Shown: positions 1 through 26,762 of the stretch, one piece after another
Position numbering within the stretch: position 1 is the stretch's first letter
Layout of the letters: every line of letters starts with the position of its first letter
Source of the DNA: Candidatus Saccharimonadota bacterium
GTDB taxonomy: Bacteria > Patescibacteriota > Saccharimonadia > Saccharimonadales > UBA4665
Length of the DNA: 32,000 nt
Reading direction: 5' to 3'
NCBI GenBank assembly: GCA_016699935.1
Contig: CP064992.1
Coordinates: forward strand, 690,001-722,000
The notes under the pieces: generated by a model
The model's database searches: none
Seen by the model: only the letters and a program-made list of their open reading frames with translations
What the model was told of the DNA's origin: nothing
Position numbers and translations under genes: made by a program

Positions 1-261
1 CCAGTACTACACTGCTTTGTACTAATGCCGGTGTCATCTCTACCTGTGATGCCACAGTTGTTGCCCCAACAGCTACTAACTTCATTCAGAACCAAACAGC
101 CTCCACCCAAACAGCTGGCTTCAAGATCGATGGTACTGGTACAGCCGGTACCTTAGTCAGTACGACTGCTGTCAAGCCCGCTGTTTGACACCGCCACAGG
201 CGTAGCTTTAAACATCGGTACCACCAATGCCACCCAGATTAACCTCAATCAAAACACTGTC

Positions 262-1341
262 GTGGCAGCTGGTAAAACCATCCGTATCACAGGCGACACT
301 CGTACCAACATCAATGCCATTGGTTCACCCACAGAAGGCATGATGACGTACGACACAACAAACAAGCAGCTCCTCACCTACTCTAACGGCAAATGGCAAG
401 CTGACCGAAGCGAAGCCATCTTGGTTGCCGCCAGTGACAGCTCAGATGCCGACAAAGCCTCAGCTGACTATGTAGCTGATGGTAACACTGGTGCAGCCCT
501 TGATGGTGACCAAGTGCAGATCAACGACGCTCTTACGGCTGCCAGTGCTTCAGGTACCCGTAAGACCGGTAAGGTTTACCTCTTCGCTGGTACGTACACT
601 GCTGATGCCACTATCCTCATCCCGAACGGTGTTACCCTCGCTGGTAGTGGTCAAAGCTCAGTCATAAAACTGGCAGACATTGATGCGACCGACAACCTCA
701 TCGAAAACAGTGACACGGCAACTGGTGCCAACATCACTATTCGTGACCTCCGCCTAGAAGGTCAACGCAACCTCAACACGGCTGGCACCCAGCACGGTAT
801 CTACCTGCTCGGCATGGGCAAAGAAACCAGCGGCAACAACGCCGTCAACGGCGCCTTCATTAGTAACGTCACCGTCTACTACTTCCGCACCGATGGTATC
901 CGCCTCGATACCTCCTCTCACAACACGATTACCAGCAGCATCTTCCGAGACAATGAGCAGTATGGTCTCTACATCCTGAATGTAAACTCCAAGTTCAACA
1001 GCATCACCGCTAACCAGTCAGAAGGCAACAACGTCGACGGCTTCCGACTCGAATCTGGCTACAGCAACACCTTCAGTGGTAACGTTGCCTACGACAATAC
1101 TTCGGCCGGTATGGCTATAGCCGGCAGCGCCAATAACAACAACATCGTCAATAACAACTTCCGCGGCAACAATGCCTATGGTATCTATGTCGGTGCTTCG
1201 ACCCTGAACAACATCAGCTCAAACAACATCCGGGGTGGTAGCACCTACGGTATCTATGTTTCTGGCTCAGACGGCAACACGGTAACGACAACAACATCTA
1301 TGACACTGGTAGCGCAACAACCAACAACGCTATCTACTTGA
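262..1341 (+). CDS. Gene A fragment: junction motif plus right-handed parallel beta-helix cassette A1 (pectate-lyase/NosD-like fold)
   Basis: TEGMMTYDTTNKQLLTYSNGKWQADRS is followed by stacked beta-helix rungs (NITIRDLRLEG, NTITSSIFRDN, NSITANQSEGN, NTFSGNVAYDN, NNIVNNNFRGN, NNISSNNIRGG). Nearly identical at nt level to 19022-19940 of gene C. The frame is open upstream to ~157. It ends through a 1-nt slip (ggtaacgac at ~1283 versus ggtaaacgac in C). Confidence 0.85.
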   Translation: MAAGKTIRITGDTRTNINAIGSPTEGMMTYDTTNKQLLTYSNGKWQADRSEAILVAASDSSDADKASADYVADGNTGAALDGDQVQINDALTAASASGTRKTGKVYLFAGTYTADATILIPNGVTLAGSGQSSVIKLADIDATDNLIENSDTATGANITIRDLRLEGQRNLNTAGTQHGIYLLGMGKETSGNNAVNGAFISNVTVYYFRTDGIRLDTSSHNTITSSIFRDNEQYGLYILNVNSKFNSITANQSEGNNVDGFRLESGYSNTFSGNVAYDNTSAGMAIAGSANNNNIVNNNFRGNNAYGIYVGASTLNNISSNNIRGGSTYGIYVSGSDGNTVTTTTSMTLVAQQPTTLST

Positions 1342-1952
1342 CTGATTCTGATCGTAACAGCATTAATGGCAACGTGATCGATGACACCTCAGCATCCACT
1401 AACAACTACGCCATCAATATCTTCAATAGCACCAGCAACAGTAACTACATATCTGGAAACATCCTCGGCGATAACGGTGCCGGTGTCACAGCTACCATTA
1501 ACGATGCTGCGACAGACACTACCTACGGTGGCCAGGCTACCGCCCTCAGCAGCACCGACATCCTCTTCAAACAGTCGGCTTCAACGGCCGCCTTCCAGAT
1601 CAAAATGCCAATGGCACCAGTATATTGAACATTGACTCAACAAACGGAGAACTTGAAGTCGGTAGCTACAATGGTGGTACTAACCCGGTAGCCGGTAAGA
1701 TAGTTATAGCTACTACTGCCAATGCCAATACTGTCACCCTGCAGTCGTCTACTCAGACTGGTAACTACACCCTCAGCATCCCAGCCTAACAGCTAATGCC
1801 AATGCATGTACCGACAACGCTATCTGCTCTGGTTACCTTGGCACTAGCACTGGTGTTCAGCTACAAGCTGCTACTCCTGGCACAGCTCAGACAGGTCACT
1901 TCAACATTACAGGTACAGGGATAGCTGGCACTAGCCTCCTCACCCCACTGCT
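389..1952. repeat. Copy 1 of ~1.56 kb near-identical beta-helix cassette (partner 18988-20557)
   Basis: Base-by-base comparison at offset 18601-18604 shows only scattered substitutions (e.g. 826-840, 981, 1134, 1548). There are three 1-nt length differences (~1283, ~1600, ~1787). Identity falls off after ~1950. Confidence 0.9.
1338..1628 (+). CDS. Gene A fragment: distal rungs of beta-helix A1
   Basis: DSDRNSINGNVIDDTSASTNNYAINIFNSTSNSNYISGNILGDNGAGV matches gene C residues encoded at ~19940-20230. It ends at a slip (gatcaaaatgcc versus gatccaaaatgc in C). Confidence 0.7.
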   Translation: MTDSDRNSINGNVIDDTSASTNNYAINIFNSTSNSNYISGNILGDNGAGVTATINDAATDTTYGGQATALSSTDILFKQSASTAAFQIKMPMAPVY

Positions 1953-1993
1953 GAACACCGCCACAGCCGTAGCCCTGAACATAGGCACCAACA

Positions 1994-2437
1994 ATGCCTC
2001 GTCAATTGATCTCAAAAGAATGTAAACATTGCTGCCAGCAAAACATTACCTTCGTTGCTGGCACAGGCGGCTTCGACCAACACAACTCTTCCGGCACCTT
2101 CCAAGCAGGAACAGGTGCCGTCAGCTTGAATGGAGATACGACGGTAGCCAGTGGCAAGAACCTGACTGTCACCAGTGGTACTACGGCACTGACTGGTACC
2201 ACCAACATAAACACTTCAGGTGCAGCCACCACCAGCATCGGTACTGGCACTGGCAATAACAGCATTGGTAATACCACAGGTACTCTTGGCCTAACCGGTA
2301 GTACAGTCACGGTTGCAGGCACCACTAGTATTAATACAACCGGTACCGGTACGACTACCATTGGCTCAGTCACGGCTGGTGCCGTTAGCATTACTTCAAT
2401 GCAGCTAGTAGCTTCACGACTAATACCGGTGCTCTAA
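1994..2437 (+). CDS. Gene A fragment: Thr/Gly-rich fibre repeat (only ~2035-2398 is in the true frame)
   Basis: QNITFVAGTGGFDQ...TGAVSLNGDTTVASGKNLTVTSGTTALTGTTNINTSGAATTSIGTGTGNNSIGNTTGTLGLTGSTVTVAG. Duplicated at 3006-3395. The Met-proximal codons are an out-of-frame artefact. Confidence 0.65.
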   Translation: MPRQLISKECKHCCQQNITFVAGTGGFDQHNSSGTFQAGTGAVSLNGDTTVASGKNLTVTSGTTALTGTTNINTSGAATTSIGTGTGNNSIGNTTGTLGLTGSTVTVAGTTSINTTGTGTTTIGSVTAGAVSITSMQLVASRLIPVL

Positions 2438-2438
2438 C

Positions 2439-2717
2439 CTGACCAGTGCCGCTGCTACCACCTGGAGCACAACGGCTGGTGCCCTAACACTGCAGGGTGC
2501 AGCTGGTGCTACCATTCGGTCGGCTGCTGGTGCGACATCCAGTGATGTCACCATAACTACCGGCGATGCCTCTGCTGGAGCCAGTGGTAACATCACCATA
2601 GATACTGGTACCTATACTAGTGGTACTCCTACTGTGAACATTGGAACAGGTGTCGCTGGTGCAGTTACCATCGGACGAGCTACCACCACCACTACTATCA
2701 AGGCTCTACCAAAGTAA
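2439..2717 (+). CDS. Gene A fragment without ATG (absent from ORF track)
   Basis: Own translation gives LTSAAATTWSTTAGALTLQGAAGATIRSAAGATSSDVTITTGDASAGASGNITIDTGTYTSGTPTVNIGTGVAGAVTIGRATTTTTIK. This continues ...NTGALT from the preceding fragment after a slip at acctg (~2438). Confidence 0.5.
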   Translation: MTSAAATTWSTTAGALTLQGAAGATIRSAAGATSSDVTITTGDASAGASGNITIDTGTYTSGTPTVNIGTGVAGAVTIGRATTTTTIKALPK

Positions 2718-2732
2718 CACCTCAGACATCGA

Positions 2733-3395
2733 CCAGTACTACACTGCTTTGTACTAATGCCGGTGTCATCTCTACCTGTGATGCCACAGTTGTTGCCCCA
2801 ACAGCTACTAACTTCATCAGAACCAAACAGCCTCCACCCAAACAGCTGGCTTCAAGATCGATGGTACTGGTACAGCCGGTACCTTAGTCGGTACGACTGC
2901 TGTCCAAGCCCGCTGTTTGACACCGCCACAGGCGTAGCTTTAAACATCGGTACCACCAATGCCACCCAGATTAACCTCAACAAAAACGTCAGTATTGCCG
3001 CCAACCAAAACATCACCTTCGTCGCCGGCACAGGCAACTTCGACCAATCAGCTAGCACCGGCACCTTCCAAACAGGAACAGGTGCCGTCAGCTTGAATGG
3101 AGATACGACAGTAGCCAGTGGCAAGAACCTGACTGTCACCAGTGGTACTACGGCACTGACCGGTACCACCAACATAAACACTTCAGGTGCTGCCACCACC
3201 AGCATCGGTACTGGCACTGGCAATAACAGCATTGGTAATACCACAGGTACCCTTGGCCTAACCGGTAGTACAGTCACGGTTGCAGGTAATACTAGTATTA
3301 ACACCACCGGTACCGGTACGACTACCATAGGCTCAGTCACAGCTGGTGCTGTTAGCATAACTTCAATGCTGCTAGTAGCATCACGACTAATACAG
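2733..3395. repeat. Composite internal duplicate in gene A: 2733-2981 matches 1-250, and 3006-3395 matches 2040-2430
   Basis: The strings match almost exactly (ccagtactacactgctttgtactaatgccggtgtcatctctacctgtgatgcc... at both 1 and 2733). The second unit lacks the ~1.75 kb beta-helix block that separates the two parts in the first unit. Confidence 0.85.
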
Positions 3396-3503
3396 GTAAC
3401 CTTACTCTTGACTCAGCAGCTGTACTGCAGCTGGGCGCTGCCAACGCCACAAGTATACTTATCGGTAAAACTGCTACTACGGCCACAGTCCAGGGCAGCT
3501 TGA
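2757..3503 (+). CDS. Gene A fragment (true frame only ~2905-3365): linker plus second copy of the Thr/Gly fibre repeat
   Basis: From SPLFDTATGVALNIGTTNATQINLNKNVSIAANQNITFVAGTGNFDQ... it parallels 181-250 and 2040-2398. The first ~50 and last ~45 codons are out-of-frame read-through. Confidence 0.55.
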   Translation: MPVSSLPVMPQLLPQQLLTSSEPNSLHPNSWLQDRWYWYSRYLSRYDCCPSPLFDTATGVALNIGTTNATQINLNKNVSIAANQNITFVAGTGNFDQSASTGTFQTGTGAVSLNGDTTVASGKNLTVTSGTTALTGTTNINTSGAATTSIGTGTGNNSIGNTTGTLGLTGSTVTVAGNTSINTTGTGTTTIGSVTAGAVSITSMLLVASRLIQVTLLLTQQLYCSWALPTPQVYLSVKLLLRPQSRAA

Positions 3504-4186
3504 CAGTCGGTGCCTCAGCCGGCACGGGTACATTTACTAACAACGGCGCCACGATTAATACCGAAAAGACTTATGGTGACTTTGCGGCAAGTGGCGCCAT
3601 GGATACAGCTGCTAACTCAGTAGATAAATATACTTACTTCAGCATTGGCCAGACGACTACCGGACGAACCATCACACTTCCAACACCAACAACCAGCCCA
3701 ACCTCTTTGTTTGGCCGTATAATTCACGTTAGCAACATCGGTAGCACAAGCTTTACTATCAGTGGATCACTCATCATGCCTGGCTATACCGCTACGTTTG
3801 TCTGGAGCAATACCGATGGTGTGGCAACTGGTGGTGAGTCATGGCAATATGCTGGAGACGGTGGTGGTTCGGGTAGCTACATCCAGAACCAAAACGCTCT
3901 GCAACAAGCTAGCAGCAATTTCTGGCTGAGTGGCACTGGCCGGGCCGATACTTCCATACTGACGCCAACGATAGACACCGCCACAGGCGTAGCCTTGAAC
4001 ATCGGCACCAGCGGCAGCCCGACAACAACACAGATCAACATAAACCAAAGCACTGTCCTGGCCTCTGGCAAAACCATCCTTGTGCTTCATAGGCGATACT
4101 CGTACCAACATCAATGCCATTGGTTCACCCACAGAAGGCATGATGACTTACGACACAACAAACAAGCAGCTCCTAACCTACGCTAA
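3500..4186 (+). CDS. Gene A fragment: spacer domain and linker module
   Basis: The frame is open upstream to ~3364 (SNAASSITTNTGNLTLDSAAVLQLGAANATSILIGK...). It contains YIQNQNALQQASSNFWLSGTG...LTPTIDTATGVALNIGTSGSPTTTQININQ, a linker module that recurs at least 5 times in genes A and C. Confidence 0.7.
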   Translation: MTVGASAGTGTFTNNGATINTEKTYGDFAASGAMDTAANSVDKYTYFSIGQTTTGRTITLPTPTTSPTSLFGRIIHVSNIGSTSFTISGSLIMPGYTATFVWSNTDGVATGGESWQYAGDGGGSGSYIQNQNALQQASSNFWLSGTGRADTSILTPTIDTATGVALNIGTSGSPTTTQININQSTVLASGKTILVLHRRYSYQHQCHWFTHRRHDDLRHNKQAAPNLR

Positions 4187-5351
4187 TGGCAAATGGCAAG
4201 CAGATAGATCCGACGCCGTACTTGTAGCTGCCAGCAACTCCAGTGAAGCCGACAAAGCTGCAGCAGATTATGTAGCAACCGGTTCGGGTGACCAGACAAC
4301 TATCCAGAGTGCCCTCGATAGTGCCGACCCGTCTGCTGGCACTCGAAAAAGCGGCAAGGTCTTGCTTTTTGCCGGTACCTACACGGTGACAGACACTATC
4401 AACATACCCGACAACACCACATTGACTGGTGCTGGCCGGGGCAGCCTTATCCAATTTGGTAATATCGCTGGCCAAAACAAAAACATGATTCAAAATAAGA
4501 ATACAACGGCAAGTACTGGTCTTGTACTTCGCGATATCCGACTCGACGGTAACAAGGCAACAAACACAACTGGCACGCAGCATGGCGTATATCTGCTTTC
4601 ATCAACGTTCCCAGGCTCAGGGGCAGGTGCTCGTATCGGCTCAGTAGTCCAAAACGTATGGGTGAGCAACTTTAGATCTAACGGCATATATGTACATAAC
4701 CAGTCCGGCAATAGCAACATTAGTAATAACATGGTGCAAGACAACGCAGCTATCGGTATCGCCGTGCAATCCGCACACGCAAATAACGTTACAAACAACT
4801 ATGTTGTTGGTAATGCTACTGACGGCATATGGGTATCTGGCTCCAGCTACAACGTAATAAGTATGAATAACGTCAATTCCAATACAAACCGAGGAATAGT
4901 CGTCGACGGTAGCGCGAACAGCAACACAATCAACAGCAATGCTCTAAAAGACAACGGCACCGGAACTGAAGCTAGTATTCTAGTGTTAAATGCTGCAACG
5001 ACACTTATTTCCAATAACGCGATTACAGATAATACCGGCGCATCTGCTTACGCAATAGACATTGATCCAACTGCTACAAACGTGTATATAGCCAACAACT
5101 CTTTAGTGGGTACGGCGGTTACGAACGGTGTGAGAGATCAGGGTACAAATACGACAATAGGTGGCCAGCTGAATAATGTTATGGGTACAGGGTCGTATGT
5201 TATCCAAAACGCTGGAGGTGTATCAATAAGTAGTTCTAACAAAGCTGTTTCCAGCGCAGTAAGCATTCAAAGCGGTAATAGCACGGCTGGTACCGCTGCT
5301 ACTGTAAGCATAGATACTGGTACAAGTACTGGAGTGGTACAAGCAATATAA
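4080..5351 (+). CDS. Gene A fragment: junction motif plus second, divergent beta-helix cassette A2
   Basis: IGDTRTNINAIGSPTEGMMTYDTTNKQLLTYANGKWQADRS (nt 4092-4202, close to 292-402) is followed by a different set of rungs: LVLRDIRLDGN, VQNVWVSNFRSNG, NSNISNNMVQDN, NNVTNNYVVGN, YNVISMNNVNSN, NSNTINSNALKDN, TTLISNNAITDN. Confidence 0.85.
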   Translation: MCFIGDTRTNINAIGSPTEGMMTYDTTNKQLLTYANGKWQADRSDAVLVAASNSSEADKAAADYVATGSGDQTTIQSALDSADPSAGTRKSGKVLLFAGTYTVTDTINIPDNTTLTGAGRGSLIQFGNIAGQNKNMIQNKNTTASTGLVLRDIRLDGNKATNTTGTQHGVYLLSSTFPGSGAGARIGSVVQNVWVSNFRSNGIYVHNQSGNSNISNNMVQDNAAIGIAVQSAHANNVTNNYVVGNATDGIWVSGSSYNVISMNNVNSNTNRGIVVDGSANSNTINSNALKDNGTGTEASILVLNAATTLISNNAITDNTGASAYAIDIDPTATNVYIANNSLVGTAVTNGVRDQGTNTTIGGQLNNVMGTGSYVIQNAGGVSISSSNKAVSSAVSIQSGNSTAGTAATVSIDTGTSTGVVQAI

Positions 5352-5452
5352 ATATAGGCACAACAAACGCTGGGGCGGTAACAATCGGAAAAGCAGCTGG
5401 CACAACAGCAATAAACCTAAAATCTAGCACAATAAACGTTGGTATCGCTACG

Positions 5453-6901
5453 GTGGCAACGACTATTCAGGGTGTAACGCAGACTACAGCTGCAACAGCC
5501 GGTGCGGCACTTACTATTCAGGGTTCTACTGGCAATACAACTGGGGCAGGTGGCATTGTAACAATTGTGGGTGGAACGGGCGGTGCAACCAACGCCAACG
5601 GCGGTAACTTAGTGCTGAGTGGTGGCGCCAAAACTGGCGCAGGTACTCAGGGCTTGGTAACGATCTCCACGAGTGCATTTACATCTTCTACTACCCAAAG
5701 TTTCGGAAGCTCTGCAAGCCTTACGGCAGGCTTAGTCGATCAGTACAGTAGCATACCTGTAACCGCAACAGCGTCTGGAGTTACCGTAACTATACCTGCG
5801 CCAGCTGCTGTAAACCAAGTAGTTGGTAGATTGCTATATGTCGCAAACGTGGGCGTAACAAACGACTTCAACATTTTATTAACTGGCACAAGCGTAACTG
5901 TGGCGCTCAAACCGAATAGTACGGCAACACTTATATGGAATGGCAACGGCTGGACGGCAGCTGGCGCATCGAGTGCGACTGACCTTCAGGCTGCTTATAA
6001 CAACACACAGACGAGTGCTGGTGGGGCGGAAATTGTTCTTAGATCTACCCTTGATACGCCAACGGGCACGGGAGGATTAACCATTCGAAATAATGACACG
6101 CTACCAATTTCTGGCGGGTTGCTCGAAATACAAAGTTCTATTGGCACAAACCTCTTTAGCGTCAACGGCTATGGTAGTGAGTTAGCTGCCAATGGTGGCG
6201 CAGAAACAAAGGGTGTCAGCGACATCACCTTCCCAGCAAGTACTTGGAGTAGCCAGAACACTGGTGCTGTTAGCCGTACGATAACTTCTGGGGAATTCCA
6301 AACGGGTATTGCTGGAGTAAAGATTGGCACCACAGGCTCCAACCAGGGTGCACGCAACCAGTTGACAGCCAACCCAGTCGCGAGCACCACCTACACGGTG
6401 TCATTCACGGCGGCGTCTAGCACAGCTGGCACAGGCACCACACCTATAGAAGTCATCTACTCACCCGATAACGGTACGACCCTTACCAACCTATGCCAAG
6501 GATACGGCAATGGTTTTACAAACTCTCGTACGATTTCCAACTACACAACAGTCAACTGGACGAAGGTGACATGTACCGTTACTACGACCGGTGCGGCCGT
6601 AACGACACCGCTACTCATCATCCGTCAAACAGATGCTACTACCCGGACTATTTACGTCGATAACCTCAGTATGATCCGTAACGATGCAACAACACGGCCA
6701 TCCAGTGTCCAAATCGGCGGCGGCAACACTGGTGGCCAGGTAACACTCTTTACCTTTGACCGATCCAGCGCGGCCCCGCTTGTGTCTGGTAGTGATGATC
6801 GTTATCTCGGCTCTATGTATTACGACACGACACTTGGCAACATCAATGTTACGAAGCCGATGGTTGGGGAGCTTGTGGTAGTGCGCCAGATAATATCGTG
6901 A
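5453..6901 (+). CDS. Gene A fragment: Gly/Thr spacer, CBM4/9 (CenC)-like carbohydrate-binding-type module, junction motif
   Basis: ELAANGGAETKG...STWSSQNTGAVSRTITSGEFQTG...TTYTVSFTAAS...VNWTKVTCTVTT...RTIYVDNLSM (~6145-6675) follows the pattern of CBM_4_9 modules. It ends ...GSMYYDTTLG at a slip. Confidence 0.85.
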   Translation: MATTIQGVTQTTAATAGAALTIQGSTGNTTGAGGIVTIVGGTGGATNANGGNLVLSGGAKTGAGTQGLVTISTSAFTSSTTQSFGSSASLTAGLVDQYSSIPVTATASGVTVTIPAPAAVNQVVGRLLYVANVGVTNDFNILLTGTSVTVALKPNSTATLIWNGNGWTAAGASSATDLQAAYNNTQTSAGGAEIVLRSTLDTPTGTGGLTIRNNDTLPISGGLLEIQSSIGTNLFSVNGYGSELAANGGAETKGVSDITFPASTWSSQNTGAVSRTITSGEFQTGIAGVKIGTTGSNQGARNQLTANPVASTTYTVSFTAASSTAGTGTTPIEVIYSPDNGTTLTNLCQGYGNGFTNSRTISNYTTVNWTKVTCTVTTTGAAVTTPLLIIRQTDATTRTIYVDNLSMIRNDATTRPSSVQIGGGNTGGQVTLFTFDRSSAAPLVSGSDDRYLGSMYYDTTLGNINVTKPMVGELVVVRQIIS

Positions 6902-7437
6902 CTTTGACGCCAGAATATTCAAACGCCGTACTAAGTGCGCCAGGAACTTTGGGTGGTAGCTTTACTGCTACTGGCGTGGGTACACTGACGGCCGACTTCT
7001 GCTCCAACCAGGGTAGTGTTCTTCAGGTCAACACCAGCTTCTGTGCATCTGGCATTGCCCGCAACTACTACCGCTGGACTTCACCGCAGGCCAGCCCTCA
7101 GACATACAGTATTTATGTGTCTTACAAGTTGCCCAGTACGTTCAAGGGCTTTTATGATGACAATACCATCAAGCTAACTGGCCTGCGCGATCATGCGACC
7201 AATTCGACAGCAGCACTAAGTGTCTTCAGGAGTACTGGTAGTGCAGTGACACAATGTGGATCGACCACCACAGTCACAACAAGTACCAGCAACTGGACGA
7301 CGACTAGTTTAACAGGTAACGAAACTTCGTGTAGTTTTGCCGCCAGTGACGTTGTGCTCTTCAAGATTGATGTTACGGCTCAAAGCAATGCCAACGTTTA
7401 TATAGAAAACCTTGAGTTTAGGTATACCAATAAGTAA
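6898..7437 (+). CDS. Gene A fragment: C-terminal ~180-aa domain
   Basis: It continues the junction motif (HQCYEADGWGACGSAPDNIV|TLTPEYS...). The sequence alternates in a beta-strand-like way and ends ...VYIENLEFRYTNK, followed by TAA. Confidence 0.8.
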   Translation: MTLTPEYSNAVLSAPGTLGGSFTATGVGTLTADFCSNQGSVLQVNTSFCASGIARNYYRWTSPQASPQTYSIYVSYKLPSTFKGFYDDNTIKLTGLRDHATNSTAALSVFRSTGSAVTQCGSTTTVTTSTSNWTTTSLTGNETSCSFAASDVVLFKIDVTAQSNANVYIENLEFRYTNK

Positions 7438-7444
7438 GGAAATA

Positions 7445-7479
7445 GAGTCATGAGACAAGAGACATGAGTCAAGATAAGA
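7445..7479. repeat. Heptad tandem repeat tract c (GAGWCAT-like x5)
   Basis: gagtcat gagacaa gagacat gagtcaa gataaga. It starts 8 nt after the gene A stop. Confidence 0.6.
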
Positions 7480-7729
7480 AAGAAAAAGGAAAATAATATG
7501 AAAAATTACCAAACCACAATACCACCTCCTAGGACAGCGCGAGCCATTCGGGCGGGACCGGCTGGCTTTTTCTGGGAGCCTCCTTGGCTACCGGGTAAAC
7601 AAAATACACACAAAAATTCCAAAACACAATCAAATCCTCCTGCGTTTCACTCCTTCCATCAATCTGTTTACAGACTGCTGGAAAGCGGAAACTACGGCGG
7701 ACAAACAAAAAAATACAAAGGAAGTTAAA

Positions 7730-7864: not shown

Positions 7865-7991
7865 GAGATATGAGATTAGAGACATGAGTCAAGAGTCATG
7901 AGACATGAGACATGAGTCATGAGTGAATCCCAAAAAAACAAACACAAAAACTCGCTAAAAATCCCAGGTGAAAATCCTGGGATTTTGCTAT
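7865..7991. repeat. Intergenic module R1, copy a: 9 heptads (7865-7927), A/C-rich tract, then hairpin
   Basis: gagatat gagatta gagacat gagtcaa gagtcat gagacat gagacat gagtcat gagtgaa, then atcccaaaaaaacaaacacaaaaactcgct and the hairpin. Positions 7890-7991 align with 8898-8990, apart from one heptad and differences in A-run length. Confidence 0.8.
7958..7986. terminator. Hairpin with flanking A/T runs (bidirectional rho-independent terminator-like) in R1a
   Basis: aaaatcccagg-tgaaaat-cctgggatttt: an 11-bp perfect stem with a 7-nt loop, A-run 5' and T-run 3'. Confidence 0.55.
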
Positions 7992-8343: not shown

Positions 8344-8624
8344 TTGGTGAAATACCTTGATTGGAGCGCTGAGAAAGACGCGTTACTGAAAGCAGAACGA
8401 GGTATCGGATTTTCCGATGTGCTAACGGCACTCGAGTCTGGTGGTCTGCTCGTAGACTTACATCACCCGAGTCAAACTACCCTCACCAACGAGTTTTTAT
8501 CGTCGCAAGTTCTCGGTTATGCCTATGTGGTGCCGTATGTAGAAGACGATGAAAGATATTTCTAAAAACGATTATTCCGAGCCGACTTGCCACCAGAAAA
8601 TATTTACAAGGAGACAAATTATGA
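8344..8624 (+). CDS. brnT: BrnT-family (DUF497-type) ribonuclease toxin, reconstructed across ~3 slips
   Basis: The ORF-track piece 8344-8565 gives VKYLDWSAEKDALLKAERGIGFSDVLTALESGGLLVDLHHPS...LGYAYVVPYVEDDERYF. Adjacent frames supply NYPHQRVFIVAS and FLKTIIPSRLATRKYLQGDKL. Its TGA overlaps the next ATG (ATGA at 8621-8624). Confidence 0.75.
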
Positions 8625-8878
8625 ACGACTACGATTTACCAAAGATGAGCAACAGTTAATGGATGATATAGAATAGAGATATTTTAACACCGGTAGCTAA
8701 TTTTGCCGACCGGAAAAAACAGTTCGAAACGTACGCACGACATACGCTTAATAAAACACGTAATATAAACATTCGACTTAGTGAACGCGACGTACATCGG
8801 TTGAAGGCTCGTGCCGCCGAGGAGGGCCTACCGTATCAGACCTACGCGGCATCACTTTTGCACAAAGCAACTCGCTGA
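8621..8878 (+). CDS. brnA: BrnA-type CopG/RHH antitoxin, reconstructed (no ORF-track entry because of two A-run slips)
   Basis: MNDYDL(T)KDEQQLMDDIE...NRDILTPVANFADRKKQFETYARHTLNKTRNINIRLSERDVHRLKARAAEEGLPYQTYAASLLHKATR. The N- and C-terminal parts share one frame. The middle reads correctly only if ttacc (~8636) and gaatag (~8671) each lack A residues. Confidence 0.75.
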
Positions 8879-8893
8879 TTGCAGATGAAAGAT

Positions 8894-8990
8894 GATGCAA
8901 GAGTCATGAGACATGAGTCATGAGTGAATCCCAAAAAAAAACACAAAAAACTCGCTAAAATCCCAGGTGAAAATCCTGGGATTTTGCTAT
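8894..8990. repeat. Intergenic module R1, copy b: 5 heptads, A/C-rich tract, then hairpin
   Basis: gatgcaa gagtcat gagacat gagtcat gagtgaa, then atcccaaaaaaaaacacaaaaaactcgct and the hairpin. It starts 16 nt after the brnA stop. Confidence 0.8.
8957..8985. terminator. Hairpin of R1b (same sequence as 7958-7986)
   Basis: aaaatcccagg-tgaaaat-cctgggatttt, placed downstream of brnTA. Confidence 0.5.
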
Positions 8991-9183
8991 GTATTTCAGG
9001 GGTAGAGTGGTACACTAAAAGCAATAGCGGTAAGAGGGCAGGGTGCGGTAAACGCATAAAAACAGTGAAAGACATAAAATTCCGAACAGTTGAACGCGGT
9101 TTACCCAGTACAAGGGAGGGTAGATCGTGCCCAAAAAATGCCGTAACCGTAAAACCGAGTCTCACTACATATAGGCAGTTAAA

Positions 9184-11679
9184 ATGGGTGAAAAATATCT
9201 GGCGAAAACTATGGCGGCAAGCAAACAGACTAGAAAAAAAATGTCTTGCTACATTTGCAAAACCTATAGCACGCAAGCTATACTACTTGCGGCCCAAGCG
9301 CAGGAAGCATCCTATGCTTGCCAGGATGGGATGGGGAGCGATGGCTGGGCTTATGCTGGTTACTGCAAATATCGATGTTGTCAACTTGCATCAAAAAATG
9401 TCGCTTACGGTCTAACGCCACAAGCTGAACAACTGCTTAGTTCACCAAAAACAACATACGGTGAAAGACTGAAGCTAGATACTAAAAAGGGTATCTACAA
9501 TTACAATCAAGGATTTCAAGTTGGTATAGGCGTGGATGGTCAGTTGAGTGGTCCAAGGTTTACCGCATCATTTGCGGTTGACCCAGCCAAGGGTACAACT
9601 GTTACCGATGCCGGTAAAGATGTCAGCGTGACGTTCACACCCAATTTCAAACTTGAACAGCCGAGGCAAAAAGACAACCGTTTGGTATACCCAGTTACGG
9701 GCACCACTGCCCAAAAAGTATATACGTTACGTGCTGCTAGCGTGAAGGAAGACATAATTTTCAACACCTATCAGGGAGACACGGCGGAGTTTGCTTACAA
9801 GCTCGATATGGCAGCTGGTACAGAAGCGAGGATGGAATCGAACGGTGCTTTGTCGATATATGGTGTAGATTCAACAATGCTTGGTAAGGTTTCGACGGGT
9901 TCAGAAAAGGATCAAGCACTACTAGAGAGCGCTCGCAAAAATGGTGAAAAGAATCTGCTACTTTTCACTTTCCCAGCGCCGTTTATCCGTGAAAGCGGTA
10001 AAAAGACCAGTCATGCAAAAGCTTGGTATAGTCTAAATGACAACGTCTTGACAATCCACGCTTCCAATTTAAAAGCCGCAAGCTATCCACTCAGTATTGA
10101 CCCGACAGTATATGTTGAAACGGCGCGCAAACTGATGCGGGGAAACAACGAATCAAATATCGACTTTGATGTCGACAATGAGCTGATCCAAAAAAGCCAA
10201 ACGACTGGCGCGCGTATCGATGCCTGGAACAATAACGGTGATCTTGACTACGCACTATGGGATCAAGGGACTGCCGTAGCAGGAGGATACATATATTCTG
10301 TCGGTGGACAGGAAGTATACAAAAAAGTATTCAACACTCAGGGGGCAGCCACCTTCAAGGTGCCGACAGGTGTCAGCTCGATTACGACCAAAATGTGGGG
10401 GGCGGGTGCTGGTGGCGGTGCTGGCGGGGCATCGGTAGCTGGCGGAACTGGTGGCGGTGCTGGCTATTTGTCGGCAACAGTAACAGTCAGTGCTGGAGAA
10501 ACCCTCAATTTGTACGTGGGTGGAGCTGGAAATGGCGGAGCGTACAGTGCAGCGGGTGTTGACGCAGGTGGCGGTGGCTCAGGTGGTGGTTTTTCTAGCT
10601 TGTATCGTAGTGCGACGCCATTAGTGATAGCAGCAGCCGGTGGTGCCGGTGGCGGCGGTCGAAACGCAACAGCCGGTGGTGCTGGTGGCGGTGGCGGTAC
10701 AGACACAGGCAACGGAGTTGCGGGTACAACTGTTGGAAATGGTGGCGGAGGCGGTGGTGCTACCACTGGTGGATCTCCAGCAGCAGGAACTGGTGGATCA
10801 GGTGGAAACAACGGTGGCTCAGCTGGTGCATCGCTGGCTGGTGGCGCAGGAGCGGATGGTCGTACAGGCAGTGTCGACGGTAGTGGCGTGGCGGGTGGTC
10901 TTACTTCGGGAGGGGCAGGTGGCTTGGCAAATCAAAATATTACTCGTCCTGGTGGTGGTGGTGGCGGTGGCGGTTACTATGGTGGTGGCGGTGGTGGCTC
11001 GACCACGAGTGCCAATGGCAATGCTGGTGGTGGCGGTGGCGGTGGCGGTGGGTATGCAAATACGGGTGCAGGCGTAACAGTTACCGCTCGAAACGTTGGT
11101 GCTGGCACAACGCCTGGCAACTCAGCCGACAGTGATCGAAATGGTGCTGGTACAGGAGGCACGGGTGGTACGGCTACAAATAGCGGAAGCGCTGGGTCAA
11201 ATGGAATAATCATCATAACCTATACGGTATCTGGTAATAGCACAGCCACAACAACGCGGGTTGCATGGGCACAATTCAACACCACTACAAACGTCATAGA
11301 AAGTCCAAATCCTGGTAACGGTGCTTGTACCGGTTGGTGCAATAATAGCGTCTACGATTTACCGCAAGCTCGAAACGGCTTCACGCTAGTAACCTATAAT
11401 GGCTTTTTATACGTCATGGGTGGTACGGACTCAAATACGGGAGGTACCTGCAGTGGTGCCCAAAAAGCCTGTACTACCGTTTATATTGCCAAACTTGGAG
11501 CAAATGGCGAGCCGCAGCTTTGGCATCCGACCGATACCAACAAAAATAACTGGGTATATTGGTATAGCGACACGGCGCTGGTGGTAGTACAGACGGCAGA
11601 AGCTATTTATGGTGCGGCCGCCTACAATAACCGCATGTATTTGCTAGGCGGAAAAACAAATGCAGCAGGGGAGGCGTGA
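9184..11679 (+). CDS. Gene B fragment 1: N-terminal domain, first blade, glycine-rich (polyglycine) domain, two blades
   Basis: ...ASYPLSIDPTVYVE ends the N-terminal domain. Then come GGYIYSVGGQ and FKVPTGVSSITTKMWGAGAGGGAGG...GGGGGGGGYYGGGGGG...GSNGIIIITY (10354-11225), followed by FLYVMGGT and MYLLGGK. The true N-terminus probably passes through the 8924-9415 frame (MLARMGWGAMAGLMLVTANI, 9314-9395) via slips in the A8 run (9234-9241) and A6 run (9393-9398). Confidence 0.85.
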   Translation: MGEKYLAKTMAASKQTRKKMSCYICKTYSTQAILLAAQAQEASYACQDGMGSDGWAYAGYCKYRCCQLASKNVAYGLTPQAEQLLSSPKTTYGERLKLDTKKGIYNYNQGFQVGIGVDGQLSGPRFTASFAVDPAKGTTVTDAGKDVSVTFTPNFKLEQPRQKDNRLVYPVTGTTAQKVYTLRAASVKEDIIFNTYQGDTAEFAYKLDMAAGTEARMESNGALSIYGVDSTMLGKVSTGSEKDQALLESARKNGEKNLLLFTFPAPFIRESGKKTSHAKAWYSLNDNVLTIHASNLKAASYPLSIDPTVYVETARKLMRGNNESNIDFDVDNELIQKSQTTGARIDAWNNNGDLDYALWDQGTAVAGGYIYSVGGQEVYKKVFNTQGAATFKVPTGVSSITTKMWGAGAGGGAGGASVAGGTGGGAGYLSATVTVSAGETLNLYVGGAGNGGAYSAAGVDAGGGGSGGGFSSLYRSATPLVIAAAGGAGGGGRNATAGGAGGGGGTDTGNGVAGTTVGNGGGGGGATTGGSPAAGTGGSGGNNGGSAGASLAGGAGADGRTGSVDGSGVAGGLTSGGAGGLANQNITRPGGGGGGGGYYGGGGGGSTTSANGNAGGGGGGGGGYANTGAGVTVTARNVGAGTTPGNSADSDRNGAGTGGTGGTATNSGSAGSNGIIIITYTVSGNSTATTTRVAWAQFNTTTNVIESPNPGNGACTGWCNNSVYDLPQARNGFTLVTYNGFLYVMGGTDSNTGGTCSGAQKACTTVYIAKLGANGEPQLWHPTDTNKNNWVYWYSDTALVVVQTAEAIYGAAAYNNRMYLLGGKTNAAGEA

Positions 11680-12122
11680 CCACTGTGGAGGTAGCGGACG
11701 TACGACCAAATGGCACTCTCGGTAGCTGGTCGACTTCTGGTATGCAAGTACTACCTTCTGTACGTCACGGTCACACGGTGCATATTTATAATGACACCAT
11801 GTATCTGATAGGGGGTAACAGCAACGGCACCCTGCAAAGCTCAGTTTATTACAGCAAACTAAATAGCGACGGCACAATGAACGGCTGGACTTTGACCAGT
11901 GGTTTTAGCACGTATGGGGCACGCACAACCCAAGGTGGCAGTTTTAGTACGGTGTGGGGAGCCTATATTTATTTAGCAGGCGGCTGTAGTACCGTAAATG
12001 GTAGCGGTTATTGCACGGTAGTGGAAAGCGATACGATATTAGCCAGCATTAACGCCGATGGCAGCTTGGCAGAGTGGAATAGCATAAACAACCTGACGGT
12101 AGTCGATCTGGATATAATTTGA
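11676..12122 (+). CDS. Gene B fragment 2: Kelch-type blades
   Basis: MYLIGGN and IYLAGGC, with W/G spacing typical of propeller blades. Confidence 0.75.
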   Translation: MTTVEVADVRPNGTLGSWSTSGMQVLPSVRHGHTVHIYNDTMYLIGGNSNGTLQSSVYYSKLNSDGTMNGWTLTSGFSTYGARTTQGGSFSTVWGAYIYLAGGCSTVNGSGYCTVVESDTILASINADGSLAEWNSINNLTVVDLDII

Positions 12123-12328
12123 TAGCCTGGCAGGGTGGACTGTATCGGCTGGGTGGTTGCATAAGCCAAAATGGCACTACAGGGGTGTGTGATAACACGA
12201 TATCGGCCTACGAATATGGTGTCGTGAACCAAGATGGCGATGCCAGCACGGTCAGCAACTCGAGCCGAGTGGAACAGCGCCGTGTAGTGGGGTACTCCGA
12301 TAAACTGCGACCTTCCTCCAGCAGGTGA
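12119..12328 (+). CDS. Gene B fragment 3: Kelch-type blade
   Basis: AWQGGLYRLGGCISQNGTTGVCDNTISAYEYGVVNQDGD. The frame is open upstream to ~12090 (PDGSRSGYNL). Confidence 0.6.
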   Translation: MIAWQGGLYRLGGCISQNGTTGVCDNTISAYEYGVVNQDGDASTVSNSSRVEQRRVVGYSDKLRPSSSR

Positions 12329-12361
12329 TGGCGCGGGGCAAGGCGGCCAAATGTCTCTAGC

Positions 12362-12568
12362 ATGGTTGTGGTCAATAACGGATTTATTTATAACATCGGT
12401 GGTTGCGTCGCTCCAGCCAGTGCATGCAACACAAACATGAGTGGCAATATTTCTTATGCCGAGCTAAATAGTGATGGTAAATGGCAAAACCTGCTACCTG
12501 TGGTGGCACATCATATGGTCTTTGGTGTGTTGATAGTACAAATAAGATTAATGGAGCTAACGGTTTAG
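12362..12568 (+). CDS. Gene B fragment 4: Kelch-type blade (correct frame only to ~12478)
   Basis: VVNNGFIYNIGGCVAPASACNTNMSGNISYAELNSDGK. The frame then slips into that of 12481-14517. Confidence 0.55.
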   Translation: MVVVNNGFIYNIGGCVAPASACNTNMSGNISYAELNSDGKWQNLLPVVAHHMVFGVLIVQIRLMELTV

Positions 12569-20818: not shown

Positions 20819-20865
20819 TACAAACAGCAAGCGGTGTAGGCCCAGCCGTAAACCAGAACAATACC

Positions 20866-21896: not shown

Positions 21897-21913
21897 ACAT
21901 CCAAGACCCTTCA

Positions 21914-26717: not shown

Positions 26718-26762
26718 GTTGGCACTAGTTCCCGTGCCTCACACTGGTTCTTGCAGTGCTTT

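What the first reader, a model, noticed from the sequence alone, without database searches (positions are those of the whole stretch)
1..7437. Gene A carries two different beta-helix cassettes plus a CBM-like module on one fibre
Reading through the slips, gene A is one polypeptide of more than 2470 residues. Two copies of the TEGMMTYDTTNKQLLTY-NGKWQADRS junction (325-405 and 4125-4205) each lead into a different beta-helix (A1 ~445-1535, A2 ~4250-5165). These are followed by a CBM4/9-like module (~6145-6675), a G-S-M-Y-Y-D-T-T..Q-C-Y-E-A-D-G-W-G-A-C junction (~6815-6885) and a C-terminal domain. Two putative enzymatic or receptor-binding cassettes in tandem on one chain would give dual specificity. 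I do not know of this layout being described for CPR surface proteins.
Basis: partly seen in the sequence, partly recalled or inferred. Interest (0 to 1): 0.7.

Follow-up and report, generated by a model that had tools for sequence, protein, structure and literature searches.

The report
Frameshift-riddled giant Saccharibacteria surface fibre gene
This is the gene for a giant cell-surface fibre of a Saccharibacteria (CPR) bacterium, carrying two beta-helix modules and two sugar-binding-like modules; it looks shattered only because the assembly drops single bases, and relatives carry the same multi-module layout intact, so it belongs to a real, widespread, uncharacterised family that probably grips host-cell sugars.

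Summary
Window 1-7437 (+) is a chain of 16 open-frame segments joined by about 17 one-base indels. Nearly all are deletions in 2-3-nt homopolymers. The repaired read is 2,488 codons with no stop, and its 5' end lies outside the window.

The slips are almost certainly assembly errors. ParA, ParB and the neighbouring Kelch gene carry the same kind of slip. Substitutions against an intact paralogue and an intact orthologue are overwhelmingly synonymous in every segment, including the last 197 codons.

Both junction-plus-beta-helix cassettes pass Pfam NosD/Beta_helix. Their profile matches the AlgE4 mannuronan C5-epimerase A-module (E 3.5e-18), but the four AlgE catalytic residues are not conserved. 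The CBM4/9-like module and the C-terminal domain both model as CBM-type jelly rolls.

The layout is not unique. Uninterrupted ORFs of 2,000-3,500 aa in other Saccharibacteria end in the same C-terminal module, and three carry two or three divergent cassettes. The family has 876 clusters at 50% identity.

Most likely this is a secreted modular host-glycan-binding fibre. Catalytic activity is unproven. I found no published description in the library searched.

The parts
1..7437 (+). Gene A: 3' 2,488 codons of a giant surface-fibre gene. The 5' end (signal peptide and N-terminal domain) lies outside the window. Stop codon TAA at 7435-7437.
   Evidence: Frame path and repaired read without stops. 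C-terminus collinear with the intact 2,238-aa ORF of CP064993.1.
84..222 (+). 'Collar' unit IQNQ...GTG...DTATGVALNIGT. It recurs at about 1880-1989, 2818-2954 and 3881-4009, each time ahead of a new stalk or cassette segment.
   Evidence: Motif coordinates, DNA repeat families D4-D7, alignment.
331..411 (+). Junction hairpin J1 (TEGMMTYDTTNKQLLTYSNGKWQADRS).
   Evidence: Modelled as three short strands ahead of the helix in the A2 model. Conserved G16, D21, Y30, K34 and W35 across 22 cassettes.
415..1520 (+). Beta-helix cassette A1 (right-handed parallel beta-helix), split by a 1-nt deletion at 1284.
   Evidence: Pfam NosD 90 bits, Beta_helix 64 bits. 96% nt and 98% aa identical to the intact copy in gene C at 18929-20594.
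1521..3562 (+). Thr/Gly/Ser/Ala/Asn-rich stalk with internal segmental duplications: 1-254 matches 2733-2985 at 98.4%, and 1955-2430 matches 2920-3397 at 89%.
   Evidence: Homology to the stalk of P0049.
3563..3856 (+). Conserved module of about 100 aa, copy D1 (...GRIIHVSNIGSTSF...W...WQYAG). It is a paralogue of D2. Its fold was not modelled.
   Evidence: The similarity to the D2 motif is by eye only.
4131..4211 (+). Junction hairpin J2 (TEGMMTYDTTNKQLLTYANGKWQADRS).
   Evidence: AlphaFold strands at residues 18-37 of the model.
4215..5171 (+). Beta-helix cassette A2. This is the only cassette of gene A free of slips.
   Evidence: Pfam NosD 54 bits, Beta_helix 46 bits. AlphaFold pLDDT 82.8, pTM 0.81. 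Foldseek top hits AlgE4/AlgE6 A-modules, phi29 gp12 and CBA120 TSP2. The cassette profile A4, built with A2 as its first sequence, matches AlgE4 at E 3.5e-18.
5678..5974 (+). Conserved module of about 100 aa, copy D2 (...GRLLYVANVG...TATLIWNGNGWTAAGASS). It is present in all family members ahead of the CBM.
   Evidence: Conserved columns in alignment A6, homologue sequences, coordinates.
6167..6694 (+). CBM4_9-like jelly-roll module.
   Evidence: No direct Pfam hit. PF02018 present in most homologues and above cut-off in L059 and P0023. Model residues 70-245 have pLDDT 85-94. Foldseek hits CBM22, CBM16 and CBM4-2 with TM 0.62-0.71.
6809..6876 (+). Junction hairpin J3 (GSMYYDTTLGNI-QCYEADGWGAC), split by a 1-nt deletion at 6844 (ATCCAA to ATCAA).
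   Evidence: Invariant in 44 homologues and found in 201 genome loci.
6877..7434 (+). Cysteine-containing C-terminal domain, modelled as a second CBM-like beta-sandwich. It is the family-defining C-terminus.
   Evidence: Model residues 340-492 have pLDDT 85-90. Whole-model alignment to tandem CBM22-1/CBM22-2 over about 450 columns. 89% aa identity to the CP064993.1 orthologue, with 100 synonymous-only against 21 nonsynonymous codons. Always at the extreme C-terminus in the 150 best hits.
173..6844 (+). Single-base indel sites that break the frame. 173: CC to C plus AAA to AA. 1284: AAA to AA. 1601: CC to C. 1785: CCC to CC. 2016 and 2037: deletions. 2397: AAA to AA. About 2439: TT to T. About 2697: CC to C. 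2817: TT to T. About 2905: AAA to AA. 3364: AAA to AA. About 4091: unresolved +1 shift. About 5316: AA to A. 6844: CC to C.
   Evidence: Comparison with the intact paralogue and internal duplicates, with the orthologue, and by two-frame reading against P0049.

Best explanation
Gene A is the 3' 7.4 kb of one gene for a giant, secreted, modular cell-surface fibre of a Candidatus Saccharibacteria bacterium. In the cell it is most likely an uninterrupted ORF of more than 2,488 codons. The roughly 17 frame breaks are single-base consensus errors of the assembly (inferred).

Architecture, shown from sequence, profiles and models: a repetitive Thr/Gly/Ser/Asn-rich stalk punctuated by 'collar' units, and two inserted cassettes. 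Each cassette is a small hairpin junction (G-M-x-Y-D-T-T...L-x-Y-x-N-G-K-W) leading into a right-handed parallel beta-helix homologous to AlgE/NosD-type modules. These are followed by a conserved module of about 100 aa, a CBM4_9-like jelly roll, a third disulfide-type hairpin, and a second CBM-like C-terminal domain. Relatives begin with a signal peptide and a conserved INFQG(R/K) domain.

Mechanism, inferred: the N-terminus holds the fibre at the cell. The stalk projects the beta-helix grooves and the C-terminal CBM pair outward. These bind glycans on the envelope of the host bacterium, helping the epibiont attach. Serial cassettes that are only 34-49% identical to each other would widen or combine glycan specificities, and recombination between paralogous fibre genes would swap them. 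Catalytic depolymerase activity is possible but not supported, because the AlgE catalytic residues are missing.
For: Identity and source. The window's own fragments are NCBI proteins of a Candidatus Saccharibacteria bacterium on a 1.23-Mb contig.

Errors rather than real breaks.
- Indels are 1 nt and deletion-biased, in 2-3-nt homopolymers.
- Near-identical internal copies carry different indels.
- ParA (A5 to A4 at 25716) and ParB have their conserved C-termini out of frame, and the Kelch gene is broken five times while its orthologue is intact at 1,887 aa.
- No nonsense codon occurs in the repaired frame.
- Synonymous-only against nonsynonymous codon differences are 43:12 (A1 versus gene C, spanning three slips), 15:6 (internal duplicate) and 100:21 (last 197 codons versus orthologue).

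Single giant ORFs are normal in this family.
- 201 genomic relatives were found and 80 loci fetched. Open frames run to 3,494 aa and end in the same module.
- There are 876 clusters at 50% identity, up to 4,611 aa, with the module always C-terminal.
- Multi-cassette chains are intact in L062 (3), L068 (3) and L059 (2).

Folds.
- A2 model: pLDDT 82.8. Top matches are the AlgE4 A-module, phi29 gp12 and tailspikes.
- The cassette profile matches AlgE4 at E 3.5e-18 and NosD at 5e-9.
- The C-terminal model matches tandem CBM22, CBM16 and CBM4.

Secretion. N-terminal hydrophobic leaders are followed by the INFQG domain in full-length relatives.

Context. Gene A is the first of three consecutive giant surface-protein genes (A, Kelch, C). 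The order is syntenic with CP064993.1.

Literature. Surface proteins with glycan-binding domains are essential for epibiotic growth of a cultured Saccharibacterium (PMC10633639).
Against: - No reads were available, so the slips are not proven to be errors.
- Two slips (2397 and 3364) sit at the same homologous position of a duplicated segment. This could mean a real inherited frameshift rather than a context-specific error.
- NCBI annotates the pieces as separate proteins.
- Gene A has more slips per kb (about 2.2) than the rest of the window (about 1), and gene C has none over 3.3 kb.
- Function is inferred from folds only. No ligand, localisation or oligomeric state is known.
- Conserved residues in the cassettes are almost all structural (Gly, an Asn ladder, hydrophobics), so neither a binding site nor an active site is identified.
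- The window's own CBM segment does not reach a Pfam hit.
- How the protein is anchored is unknown. The N-terminus lies outside the window.
Confidence: 0.6

Rival explanations
1. Gene A is a genuine, decaying pseudogene. The frameshifts exist in the cell and the fibre is no longer made.
For: There are at least 15 frame switches in the deposited sequence. Slip density is higher than in neighbouring genes. Two slips are shared by both copies of an internal duplication.
Against: - There are no nonsense substitutions and no indels longer than 1 nt.
- There is a strong synonymous excess in every segment, including the last 197 codons downstream of all slips.
- The same kind of slip disrupts the housekeeping ParA and ParB genes.
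Confidence: 0.07
2. The region is an operon of several independent smaller genes, as annotated (359, 403 and 482 aa and others), some with 4-nt stop/start overlaps.
For: ORFs 262-1341/1338-1628, 2757-3503/3500-4186 and 5453-6901/6898-7437 overlap by 4 nt. NCBI calls them proteins.
Against: - The breaks fall inside domains. The A1 beta-helix is cut mid-coil at 1284 relative to its intact 98%-identical copy.
- The invariant J3 hairpin is cut at 6844.
- Homologues are single ORFs of 900-3,500 aa.
- Several pieces have no plausible start codon at the point where homology begins.
Confidence: 0.03
3. The beta-helix cassettes are active polysaccharide depolymerases or modifying enzymes (lyase, hydrolase or epimerase). 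They would digest host capsule or cell-wall glycans, as phage tailspikes do, rather than merely bind them.
For: The cassettes are homologous to catalytic AlgE A-modules. The fold matches alginate epimerase/lyase, phi29 gp12, CBA120 TSP2, Sf6 tailspike, GH87, inulin fructotransferase and viral pectate-lyase-superfamily proteins. Relatives are tagged PF12708. AlgE enzymes also carry one or two A-modules per chain (PMC7385640).
Against: The AlgE catalytic Tyr149, Asp152, His154 and Asp178 are not conserved. Across 22 cassettes they are present in 1, 2, 1 and 2 cassettes respectively. A2 keeps only the His and A1 keeps none. No other conserved acidic or basic constellation emerged. Beta-helices also serve as pure adhesins, for example PfbA among the hits.
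Confidence: 0.25
4. The two-cassette layout of this particular gene is an assembly chimera. It would arise from mis-joining across the near-identical repeats (328-1990 versus 18929-20594, and 1-254 versus 2733-2985).
For: Gene A and gene C share a long 96% repeat. Gene A also has a 98% internal repeat. The assembly is demonstrably error-prone.
Against: - The two repeat copies differ by 61 substitutions and are embedded in different unique flanks.
- Gene order A, Kelch, C, ParAB is syntenic with an independent genome.
- Multi-cassette chains exist in independent assemblies.
Confidence: 0.04
5. The slips are programmed: phase variation or ribosomal frameshifting regulating a contingency surface gene.
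For: Surface-protein genes are classic phase-variable loci. The slips lie in homopolymers.
Against: The tracts are only 2-5 nt long. About 17 sites would all have to be 'on' at the same time. ParA and ParB show the same slips.
Confidence: 0.01

Closest known systems
[quoted passage not shown]
   Same: The cassette profile matches the AlgE4 and AlgE6 A-modules by sequence (E 3.5e-18 and 2.9e-17) and as the top fold hits. AlgE proteins are secreted, modular, and carry one or two beta-helix A-modules on one chain (PMC7385640).
   Different: The catalytic Tyr149, Asp152, His154 and Asp178 are not conserved. No Ca-binding R-modules were found by Pfam. The cassettes are embedded in a stalk of more than 2,000 aa with CBM-like C-terminal domains. 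The host organism is a monoderm CPR epibiont, not an alginate producer.
Phage tailspikes and tail-fibre depolymerases (phi29 gp12, CBA120 TSP2, Sf6 TSP; Pfam Pectate_lyase_3)
   Same: Both have a right-handed parallel beta-helix displayed on a fibre and diversified by modular exchange. Fold matches score E 1e-7 to 1e-5 in the PDB and 1e-10 to 1e-6 in BFVD. The hairpin junction motif weakly resembles the end of DUF2793 (24.9 bits, below the cut-off of 27).
   Different: The gene is chromosomal, sits next to parAB and lytR, and has no virion genes nearby. No relatives were found in IMG/VR by the pattern scans. Several beta-helices lie in series on one chain instead of one per protein. Trimer status is unknown.
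Basic Saccharibacteria/Patescibacteria proteins of about 905-940 aa (e.g. P0023, P0031, P0036, P0040)
   Same: They share the stalk, the 100-aa module, the CBM4_9, the GSMYYDTT...QCYxAxGWGAC hairpin and the C-terminal domain. Identity is 43-56% over the last 540 aa of gene A.
   Different: They lack beta-helix cassettes and the long duplicated stalk. Gene A is an expanded version with two inserted cassettes.
CBM4/9, CBM16 and CBM22 modules of glycoside hydrolases (e.g. Xyn10C tandem CBM22)
   Same: The jelly-roll fold matches with TM 0.62-0.71 for single modules. There is a tandem arrangement of two such domains. PF02018 hits occur in homologues.
   Different: There is no attached glycoside-hydrolase catalytic domain. 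The window's own sequence does not reach a Pfam hit. Ligand-binding residues were not examined.
Giant repetitive bacterial adhesins and beta-helical adhesins (e.g. PfbA of S. pneumoniae; 'trimeric autotransporter adhesin' as JGI named P0013)
   Same: Both are very long, repetitive, secreted surface proteins with carbohydrate-binding-type modules. PfbA appears among the fold hits.
   Different: No YadA-type anchor, LPXTG motif or other known anchoring motif was detected. The family-specific N- and C-terminal modules have no Pfam model.

Membership tests
Right-handed parallel beta-helix (Pfam PF13229 Beta_helix / PF05048 NosD) | Profile hit above the curated gathering score | tested here: met
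   A1 piece: NosD 90.3 bits (cut-off 23.6), Beta_helix 63.6 bits (cut-off 25.9). A2 piece: 54.2 and 46.2 bits.
Right-handed parallel beta-helix (Pfam PF13229 Beta_helix / PF05048 NosD) | Predicted three-dimensional fold is a parallel beta-helix | tested here: met
   The AlphaFold model of A2 has pLDDT 82.8 and a regular strand ladder. All top Foldseek hits are beta-helix proteins.
AlgE-type mannuronan C-5-epimerase A-module | Sequence homology to the A-module | tested here: met
   Cassette profile against PDB sequences: AlgE4 E 3.5e-18, AlgE6 2.9e-17, other mannuronan 5-epimerases about 1e-14.
AlgE-type mannuronan C-5-epimerase A-module | Catalytic residues Tyr149, Asp152, His154 and Asp178 (PMC7385640) | tested here: not met
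   hmmalign of AlgE4 residues 7-229 with 22 cassettes. A2 has N/Y/H/Q and A1 has D/R/D/N at these positions. Across all 22 cassettes the residues are present in 1, 2, 1 and 2 respectively.
AlgE-type mannuronan C-5-epimerase A-module | Accompanying Ca2+-binding R-modules | tested here: not met
   No RTX/HemolysinCabind or other such hit in a Pfam scan of all pieces of gene A or of the intact relatives L062 and L059.
CBM_4_9 (Pfam PF02018) | Profile hit above the gathering score (25.9 bits) | tested here: inconclusive
   The window's piece 5282-6898 gave no hit at E<=0.1. Homologues do hit: L059 34.7 bits, P0023 26.5 bits, and PF02018 is precomputed for most of the 66 hits.
CBM_4_9 (Pfam PF02018) | Jelly-roll beta-sandwich fold of the CBM4/9/16/22 type | tested here: met
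   Model residues 70-245 have pLDDT 85-94. Foldseek hits CBM16, CBM22 and CBM4-2 at E 1e-6 to 1e-5 with target TM 0.62-0.71.
CBM_4_9 (Pfam PF02018) | Carbohydrate binding | not testable with these tools
   This needs glycan arrays or binding assays.
Phage tailspike / tail-fibre depolymerase | Encoded in a virus or prophage with virion genes | tested here: not met
   The neighbours are a Kelch giant protein, another fibre gene, ParA, ParB, an S26 peptidase and LytR. Scans of IMG/VR with the cassette and C-terminal patterns gave no relatives.
Phage tailspike / tail-fibre depolymerase | Homotrimeric assembly | not testable with these tools
   Only monomer prediction was available.
Saccharibacteria giant-fibre family (defined here by its C-terminal module) | GSMYYDTT..QCYxAxGWGAC hairpin plus a domain of about 190 aa at the extreme C-terminus | tested here: met
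   Window 6809-7434. It is 89% identical to the CP064993.1 orthologue and 46-64% identical to 80 genomic loci. The module is C-terminal in all 150 best hits.
Saccharibacteria giant-fibre family (defined here by its C-terminal module) | N-terminal signal peptide plus conserved INFQG(R/K) domain | not testable with these tools
   The 5' end of gene A lies upstream of the window. The feature is seen in full-length relatives.
Trimeric autotransporter adhesin (name given by JGI to homologue P0013) | C-terminal YadA-like membrane anchor | tested here: not met
   No such Pfam hit. The C-terminus is a CBM-like beta-sandwich.

The most novel reading that the evidence does not exclude
Saccharibacteria encode a large, so far undescribed family of tail-fibre-like 'multi-tool' surface fibres. 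AlgE-like beta-helix cassettes that have lost the epimerase active site are strung in series (one to three per chain) on a repetitive stalk. They are exchanged between paralogous giant genes by intragenomic recombination: A1 is a 96%-identical copy of the gene C cassette 18.6 kb away. This would be a cell-encoded analogue of phage receptor-binding-protein module swapping, and it would set and switch which host bacteria the epibiont can attach to.
Probability: 0.25. Interest if true: 0.7.

Novelty: new variant of a known kind. Interest (0 to 1): 0.45.

Why it matters
How CPR/Patescibacteria epibionts recognise their host bacteria is largely open. Type IV pili and a few 'adhesins' with glycan-binding domains are the only genetically supported players (PMC10633639, PMC11665869).

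This family has 876 clusters at 50% identity. Members are often 2,000-4,600 aa, so each can take up 1% or more of a ~1-Mb genome. They combine beta-helix and CBM-type modules in variable numbers. That makes the family a concrete, testable candidate for host-range determinants.

There is also a practical lesson. In indel-rich long-read MAGs these genes are shredded into 'hypothetical proteins' and 'beta-helix repeat proteins'. Surveys based on called proteins will therefore miss or miscount them.

Tried and rejected
- Alternative genetic code as the cause of the stops. Rejected: the reading frame itself shifts and all three stop codons occur off-frame.
- tRNA and Rfam scans of the window found nothing.
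- Looking up the window's own fragment P0001 in the contig index to get upstream DNA: not on record. The 5' end of gene A and the N-terminal 1,400 aa of the 2,238-aa orthologue could therefore not be read.
- The source species and CP064993.1 were not among the GTDB representative hits. The best hit was 64% identical.
- A single-sequence PDB search with A2 gave only AlgG at E 0.06. The C-terminal profile found nothing in PDB sequences. Profile and fold searches were needed.
- Viral contig scans with the cassette and C-terminal patterns gave no relatives.
- Pfam on three other giants of the family (3,250-3,470 aa) gave no domains at all. Beta-helix cassettes are therefore optional inserts.
- Looking for a conserved catalytic constellation among 22 cassettes found only structural residues.
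- Literature searches for Saccharibacteria with beta-helix, pectate lyase, NosD, CBM, giant or tail fibre found no description of this family.
- The 5.8-billion-protein search had already shown no same-strain sequence, with the best non-self identity at 71-81%.

Full report
**What is in the sequence**

On the + strand, 1-7437 is not one ORF. It is a relay of overlapping open frames. I used 70-odd homologous proteins as guides to trace the coding frame. The path is F3 3-168, F1 169-1266, F3 to 1549, F2 to 1786, F1 to 2019, F2 to 2397, F1 2398-2433, F3 to about 2690, F2 to 2817, F1 2818-2904, F3 2907-3364, F2 3365-4091, F3 4092-5327, F2 5328-6843 and F1 6844-7434. There is an extra pair of slips at 2016 and 2037. 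Joining the segments gives 2,488 codons with no in-frame stop. Each + frame otherwise holds 107-130 stops over the first 9 kb. The frame is already open at base 3, so the 5' end of the gene lies outside the window.

- The TEGMMTYDTTNKQLLTY(S/A)NGKWQADRS junctions lie at 331-411 and 4131-4211, 6 nt off the stated coordinates. They sit inside an 84%-identical 190-nt repeat.
- Both are followed by Pfam NosD/Beta_helix regions well above the gathering scores.
- The GSMYYDTTLGNI/QCYEADGWGAC junction lies at 6809-6876.
- A C-terminal domain runs to 7434.

**Are the slips real?**

Four lines of evidence say they are assembly errors.

First, their nature. Gene A 328-1990 is a 96%-identical paralogue of 18929-20594, which lies inside an uninterrupted 1,070-codon ORF ('gene C'). 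Relative to that copy, gene A lacks exactly one base at three sites: 1284 (AAA to AA), 1601 (CC to C) and 1785 (CCC to CC). Relative to its orthologue it lacks one base at 6844 (ATCCAA to ATCAA). The two 98%-identical internal copies 1-254 and 2733-2985 carry different one-base indels. The other sites read the same way: TCAAAT to TCAAT, ACCTTG to ACCTG, ATCCAA to ATCAA, GGAAGT to GGAGT. Eleven of fourteen frame changes are in the direction of a single deletion. No indel longer than 1 nt is needed anywhere, and there are no nonsense substitutions.

Second, the slips are not specific to gene A. ParA has its conserved last 51 residues (84% identical to the relative's) out of frame after an A5-to-A4 deletion at 25716. 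ParB's conserved C-terminus is also out of frame. The Kelch giant gene is broken five times, while its orthologue is an intact 1,887-aa ORF.

Third, selection. After the three slips are repaired, A1 and gene C differ at 43 synonymous-only and 12 nonsynonymous codons, and 47 of 60 nucleotide differences are at third positions. An internal duplicate gives 15:6. The last 197 codons lie downstream of every slip. Against the CP064993.1 orthologue they give 100:21, with 114 of 144 differences at third positions.

Fourth, relatives. The syntenic locus of CP064993.1 has an intact 2,238-aa ORF whose C-terminal 676 residues (155-830 of the 831 I could read) are collinear with window 5345-7434 across the 6844 slip.

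Three facts sit less comfortably.
- The slips at 2397 and 3364 are at the same homologous position of a duplicated segment. I read this as a context-specific error, because TCAAAT and TCCAA contexts recur. An inherited real frameshift is not excluded.
- Gene A has roughly twice the slip density of the rest of the window.
- I had no reads.

The locus-tag series (IPL68_, IPL85_) suggests, from my own knowledge, nanopore-based activated-sludge MAGs. I could not verify this here.

**The family**

A degenerate-pattern scan of 185,579 species-representative genomes with the C-terminal module found 201 relatives. I fetched the best 80 loci, nearly all titled Saccharibacteria, Saccharimonadales or Patescibacteria. 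In these loci the stop-to-stop open frame that ends in this module is often enormous. Thirty-six exceed 2,000 aa and the longest is 3,494 aa.

An exhaustive profile search of 1.84 billion cluster representatives found 876 proteins at E<=1e-3 and 216 at E<=1e-30. They reach 4,611 aa, and the module is at the extreme C-terminus in all 150 listed.

A 'basic' form of 905-940 aa is common. It has an N-terminal hydrophobic leader, a conserved INFQG(K/R) domain, a stalk, a conserved module of about 100 aa, CBM4_9, the hairpin and the C-terminal domain. The giants have the same N-terminal leader and domain.

**Cassettes**

I built an HMM from the window's three cassettes plus two database relatives. 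It found cassettes in 15 of the 78 family ORFs. Uninterrupted ORFs carried three in L062 (3,061 aa), three in L068 (3,134 aa) and two in L059 (UBA1050, 2,788 aa). Pfam confirmed the multiple NosD/Beta_helix stretches, and confirmed CBM_4_9 in L059. Other giants have no Pfam domain at all. The cassette is therefore an optional insert in a variable stalk. Cassettes within one protein are only 34-49% identical, as are A1 and A2 (49%).

It is not an artefact of reading through slips.

**What the modules are**

AlphaFold2 on A2, using a 38-sequence alignment, gave pLDDT 82.8 and pTM 0.81. The model shows a short three-stranded hairpin (the junction), an alpha-helical cap and a regular beta-helix.
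- Foldseek against the PDB ranks the AlgE4 and AlgE6 mannuronan C5-epimerase A-modules first (E 7e-10). Next come an alginate epimerase/lyase, phi29 gp12, Geobacillus virus E2 ORF18, CBA120 TSP2, Sf6 tailspike, GH87 and inulin fructotransferases.
- Against BFVD it matches viral 'pectate lyase superfamily' and tail-fibre proteins.
- A profile of the cassettes detects AlgE4 by sequence alone (E 3.5e-18). It also detects NosD (5e-9) and AlgG (2e-4).

[quoted passage not shown] Aligned to AlgE4, A2 has N, Y, H, Q at these four positions and A1 has D, R, D, N. Across 22 cassettes the residues are present in 1, 2, 1 and 2 respectively. The residues conserved among cassettes are glycines, an Asn ladder and hydrophobics. 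The cassettes are therefore homologues of AlgE A-modules but not AlgE-type enzymes. Either they bind without catalysis or they use a site I cannot recognise.

For the C-terminal 492 residues, the model has pLDDT 74 overall and 85-94 in the two folded domains. It aligns end-to-end with the tandem CBM22-1/CBM22-2 of Xyn10C, and domain-wise with CBM16, CBM22 and CBM4-2 at TM 0.62-0.71. The CBM4/9-like call is right at the fold and family level, even though the window's own sequence gives no Pfam hit. The C-terminal domain is a second CBM-like sandwich.

**How it probably works (inferred)**

The protein is secreted by its leader. The conserved N-terminal domain stays at the envelope. The repetitive stalk projects the beta-helix grooves and the terminal CBM pair outward. 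These bind polysaccharides on the host bacterium's surface.

Divergent cassettes in series would add or combine specificities. The 1.67-kb repeat shared by gene A and gene C at 96% identity shows that cassettes move between paralogous fibre genes within one genome.

The setting fits this role. Gene A is the first of three consecutive giant surface-protein genes: A, a Kelch beta-propeller giant, and C. They lie upstream of parAB, in the same order as in CP064993.1. In a cultured Saccharibacterium, surface proteins with glycan-binding domains are essential for epibiotic growth (PMC10633639).

My confidence by step:
- One gene broken by errors: about 0.85.
- Surface fibre with glycan-binding modules: about 0.6.
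- Non-catalytic rather than depolymerase: about 0.5-0.6.

**Novelty and verdict**

The parts are known kinds: NosD/AlgE-like beta-helix, CBM4_9, and a repetitive adhesin stalk. Two catalytic beta-helices on one chain are known from AlgE1 and AlgE3. I found no published description, in the library searched, of the following:
- the family-specific N- and C-terminal modules;
- the hairpin junctions;
- the use of one to three active-site-less AlgE-like cassettes on a fibre of 2,000-4,600 aa in ultrasmall epibionts.

I rate it a new variant of a known kind, of moderate interest. This window is an error-laden member rather than a unique case.

Noticed in passing
window 25105-25859 (ParA) and 25852-26800 (ParB): Both housekeeping genes are frameshifted. 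ParA's last 51 residues (84% identical to the CP064993.1 ParA) are in frame 3 after an A5-to-A4 deletion at 25716. ParB's conserved C-terminal 'KRY..YRTA.GGR...F.SDE.L.RL..EL' is in another frame. The whole assembly is indel-rich, at roughly 1-2 slips per kb of coding sequence.
   Followed up: yes
window 328-1990 versus 18929-20594: A 1.67-kb direct repeat, 96% nt and 98% aa identical, is shared between cassette A1 plus its downstream stalk in gene A and the intact 1,070-aa ORF 17606-20818 ('gene C'). There are 61 substitutions, 47 of 60 scored at third codon positions. This suggests recent duplication or gene conversion of a whole cassette between paralogous fibre genes.
   Followed up: yes
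window 9065-14996: A Kelch-repeat giant gene is split into frames F2, F1, F3, F2, F1 and F3. Its orthologue in CP064993.1 is an intact 1,887-aa ORF. It forms a three-gene block of giant surface proteins with gene A and gene C.
   Followed up: partly
window 17411-22846: Gene C continues beyond the 1,070-aa ORF in frames F3 (21012-21856) and F2 (21857-22843). It is homologous to the 837-aa protein of L001. It is probably another fibre of about 1,800 aa with a different C-terminus and two slips.
   Followed up: partly
L001 10001-16845 (CP064993.1): The sister genome's counterpart of gene C is itself chopped into 444 + 242 + 173 + 562 + 837 aa genes. The pieces are up to 93% identical to parts of the window's gene A. 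This implies the same assembly problem there, and mosaic sharing of stalk and cassette segments between genomes.
   Followed up: partly
window 7884-7990 and 8895-8990 (weaker copies at 7436-7501): A repeated element of about 100 nt: (GAGTCATGAGACATGAGTCATGAGTGAATCCCAAAAAAA...CCCAGGTGAAAATCCTGGGATTTTGC). It ends in a terminator-like hairpin and brackets an insert of about 900 nt between gene A and the Kelch gene. There is no Rfam match.
   Followed up: partly
window 8344-8565 and 8590-8879: Two small ORFs lie between the repeat copies. The second is CopG-antitoxin-like (PF12441, 25.5 bits, just under the cut-off of 28) and is itself frameshifted near 8660. The pair may be a toxin-antitoxin module.
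   Followed up: partly
window 173, 1601, 2697, 6844: Four of the single-base deletions share the context TCCAA read as TCAA. Several others are AAA read as AA. This hints at a systematic, context-dependent basecalling or consensus error, possibly linked to a modification motif, rather than random noise.
   Followed up: no
L062 residues 931-956 (locus L062:1622-10774): The hairpin junction (GMLYYDTSTNQMLQYNGTKW) gives a sub-threshold match to the C-terminal end of Pfam DUF2793 (24.9 bits against a cut-off of 27). The small junction motif may be shared with other fibre proteins.
   Followed up: no
L057, L044, L076 (3,250-3,470-aa family members): Some of the largest family members have no Pfam domain at all outside the family-specific ends. 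Their long middles are unexplored.
   Followed up: no
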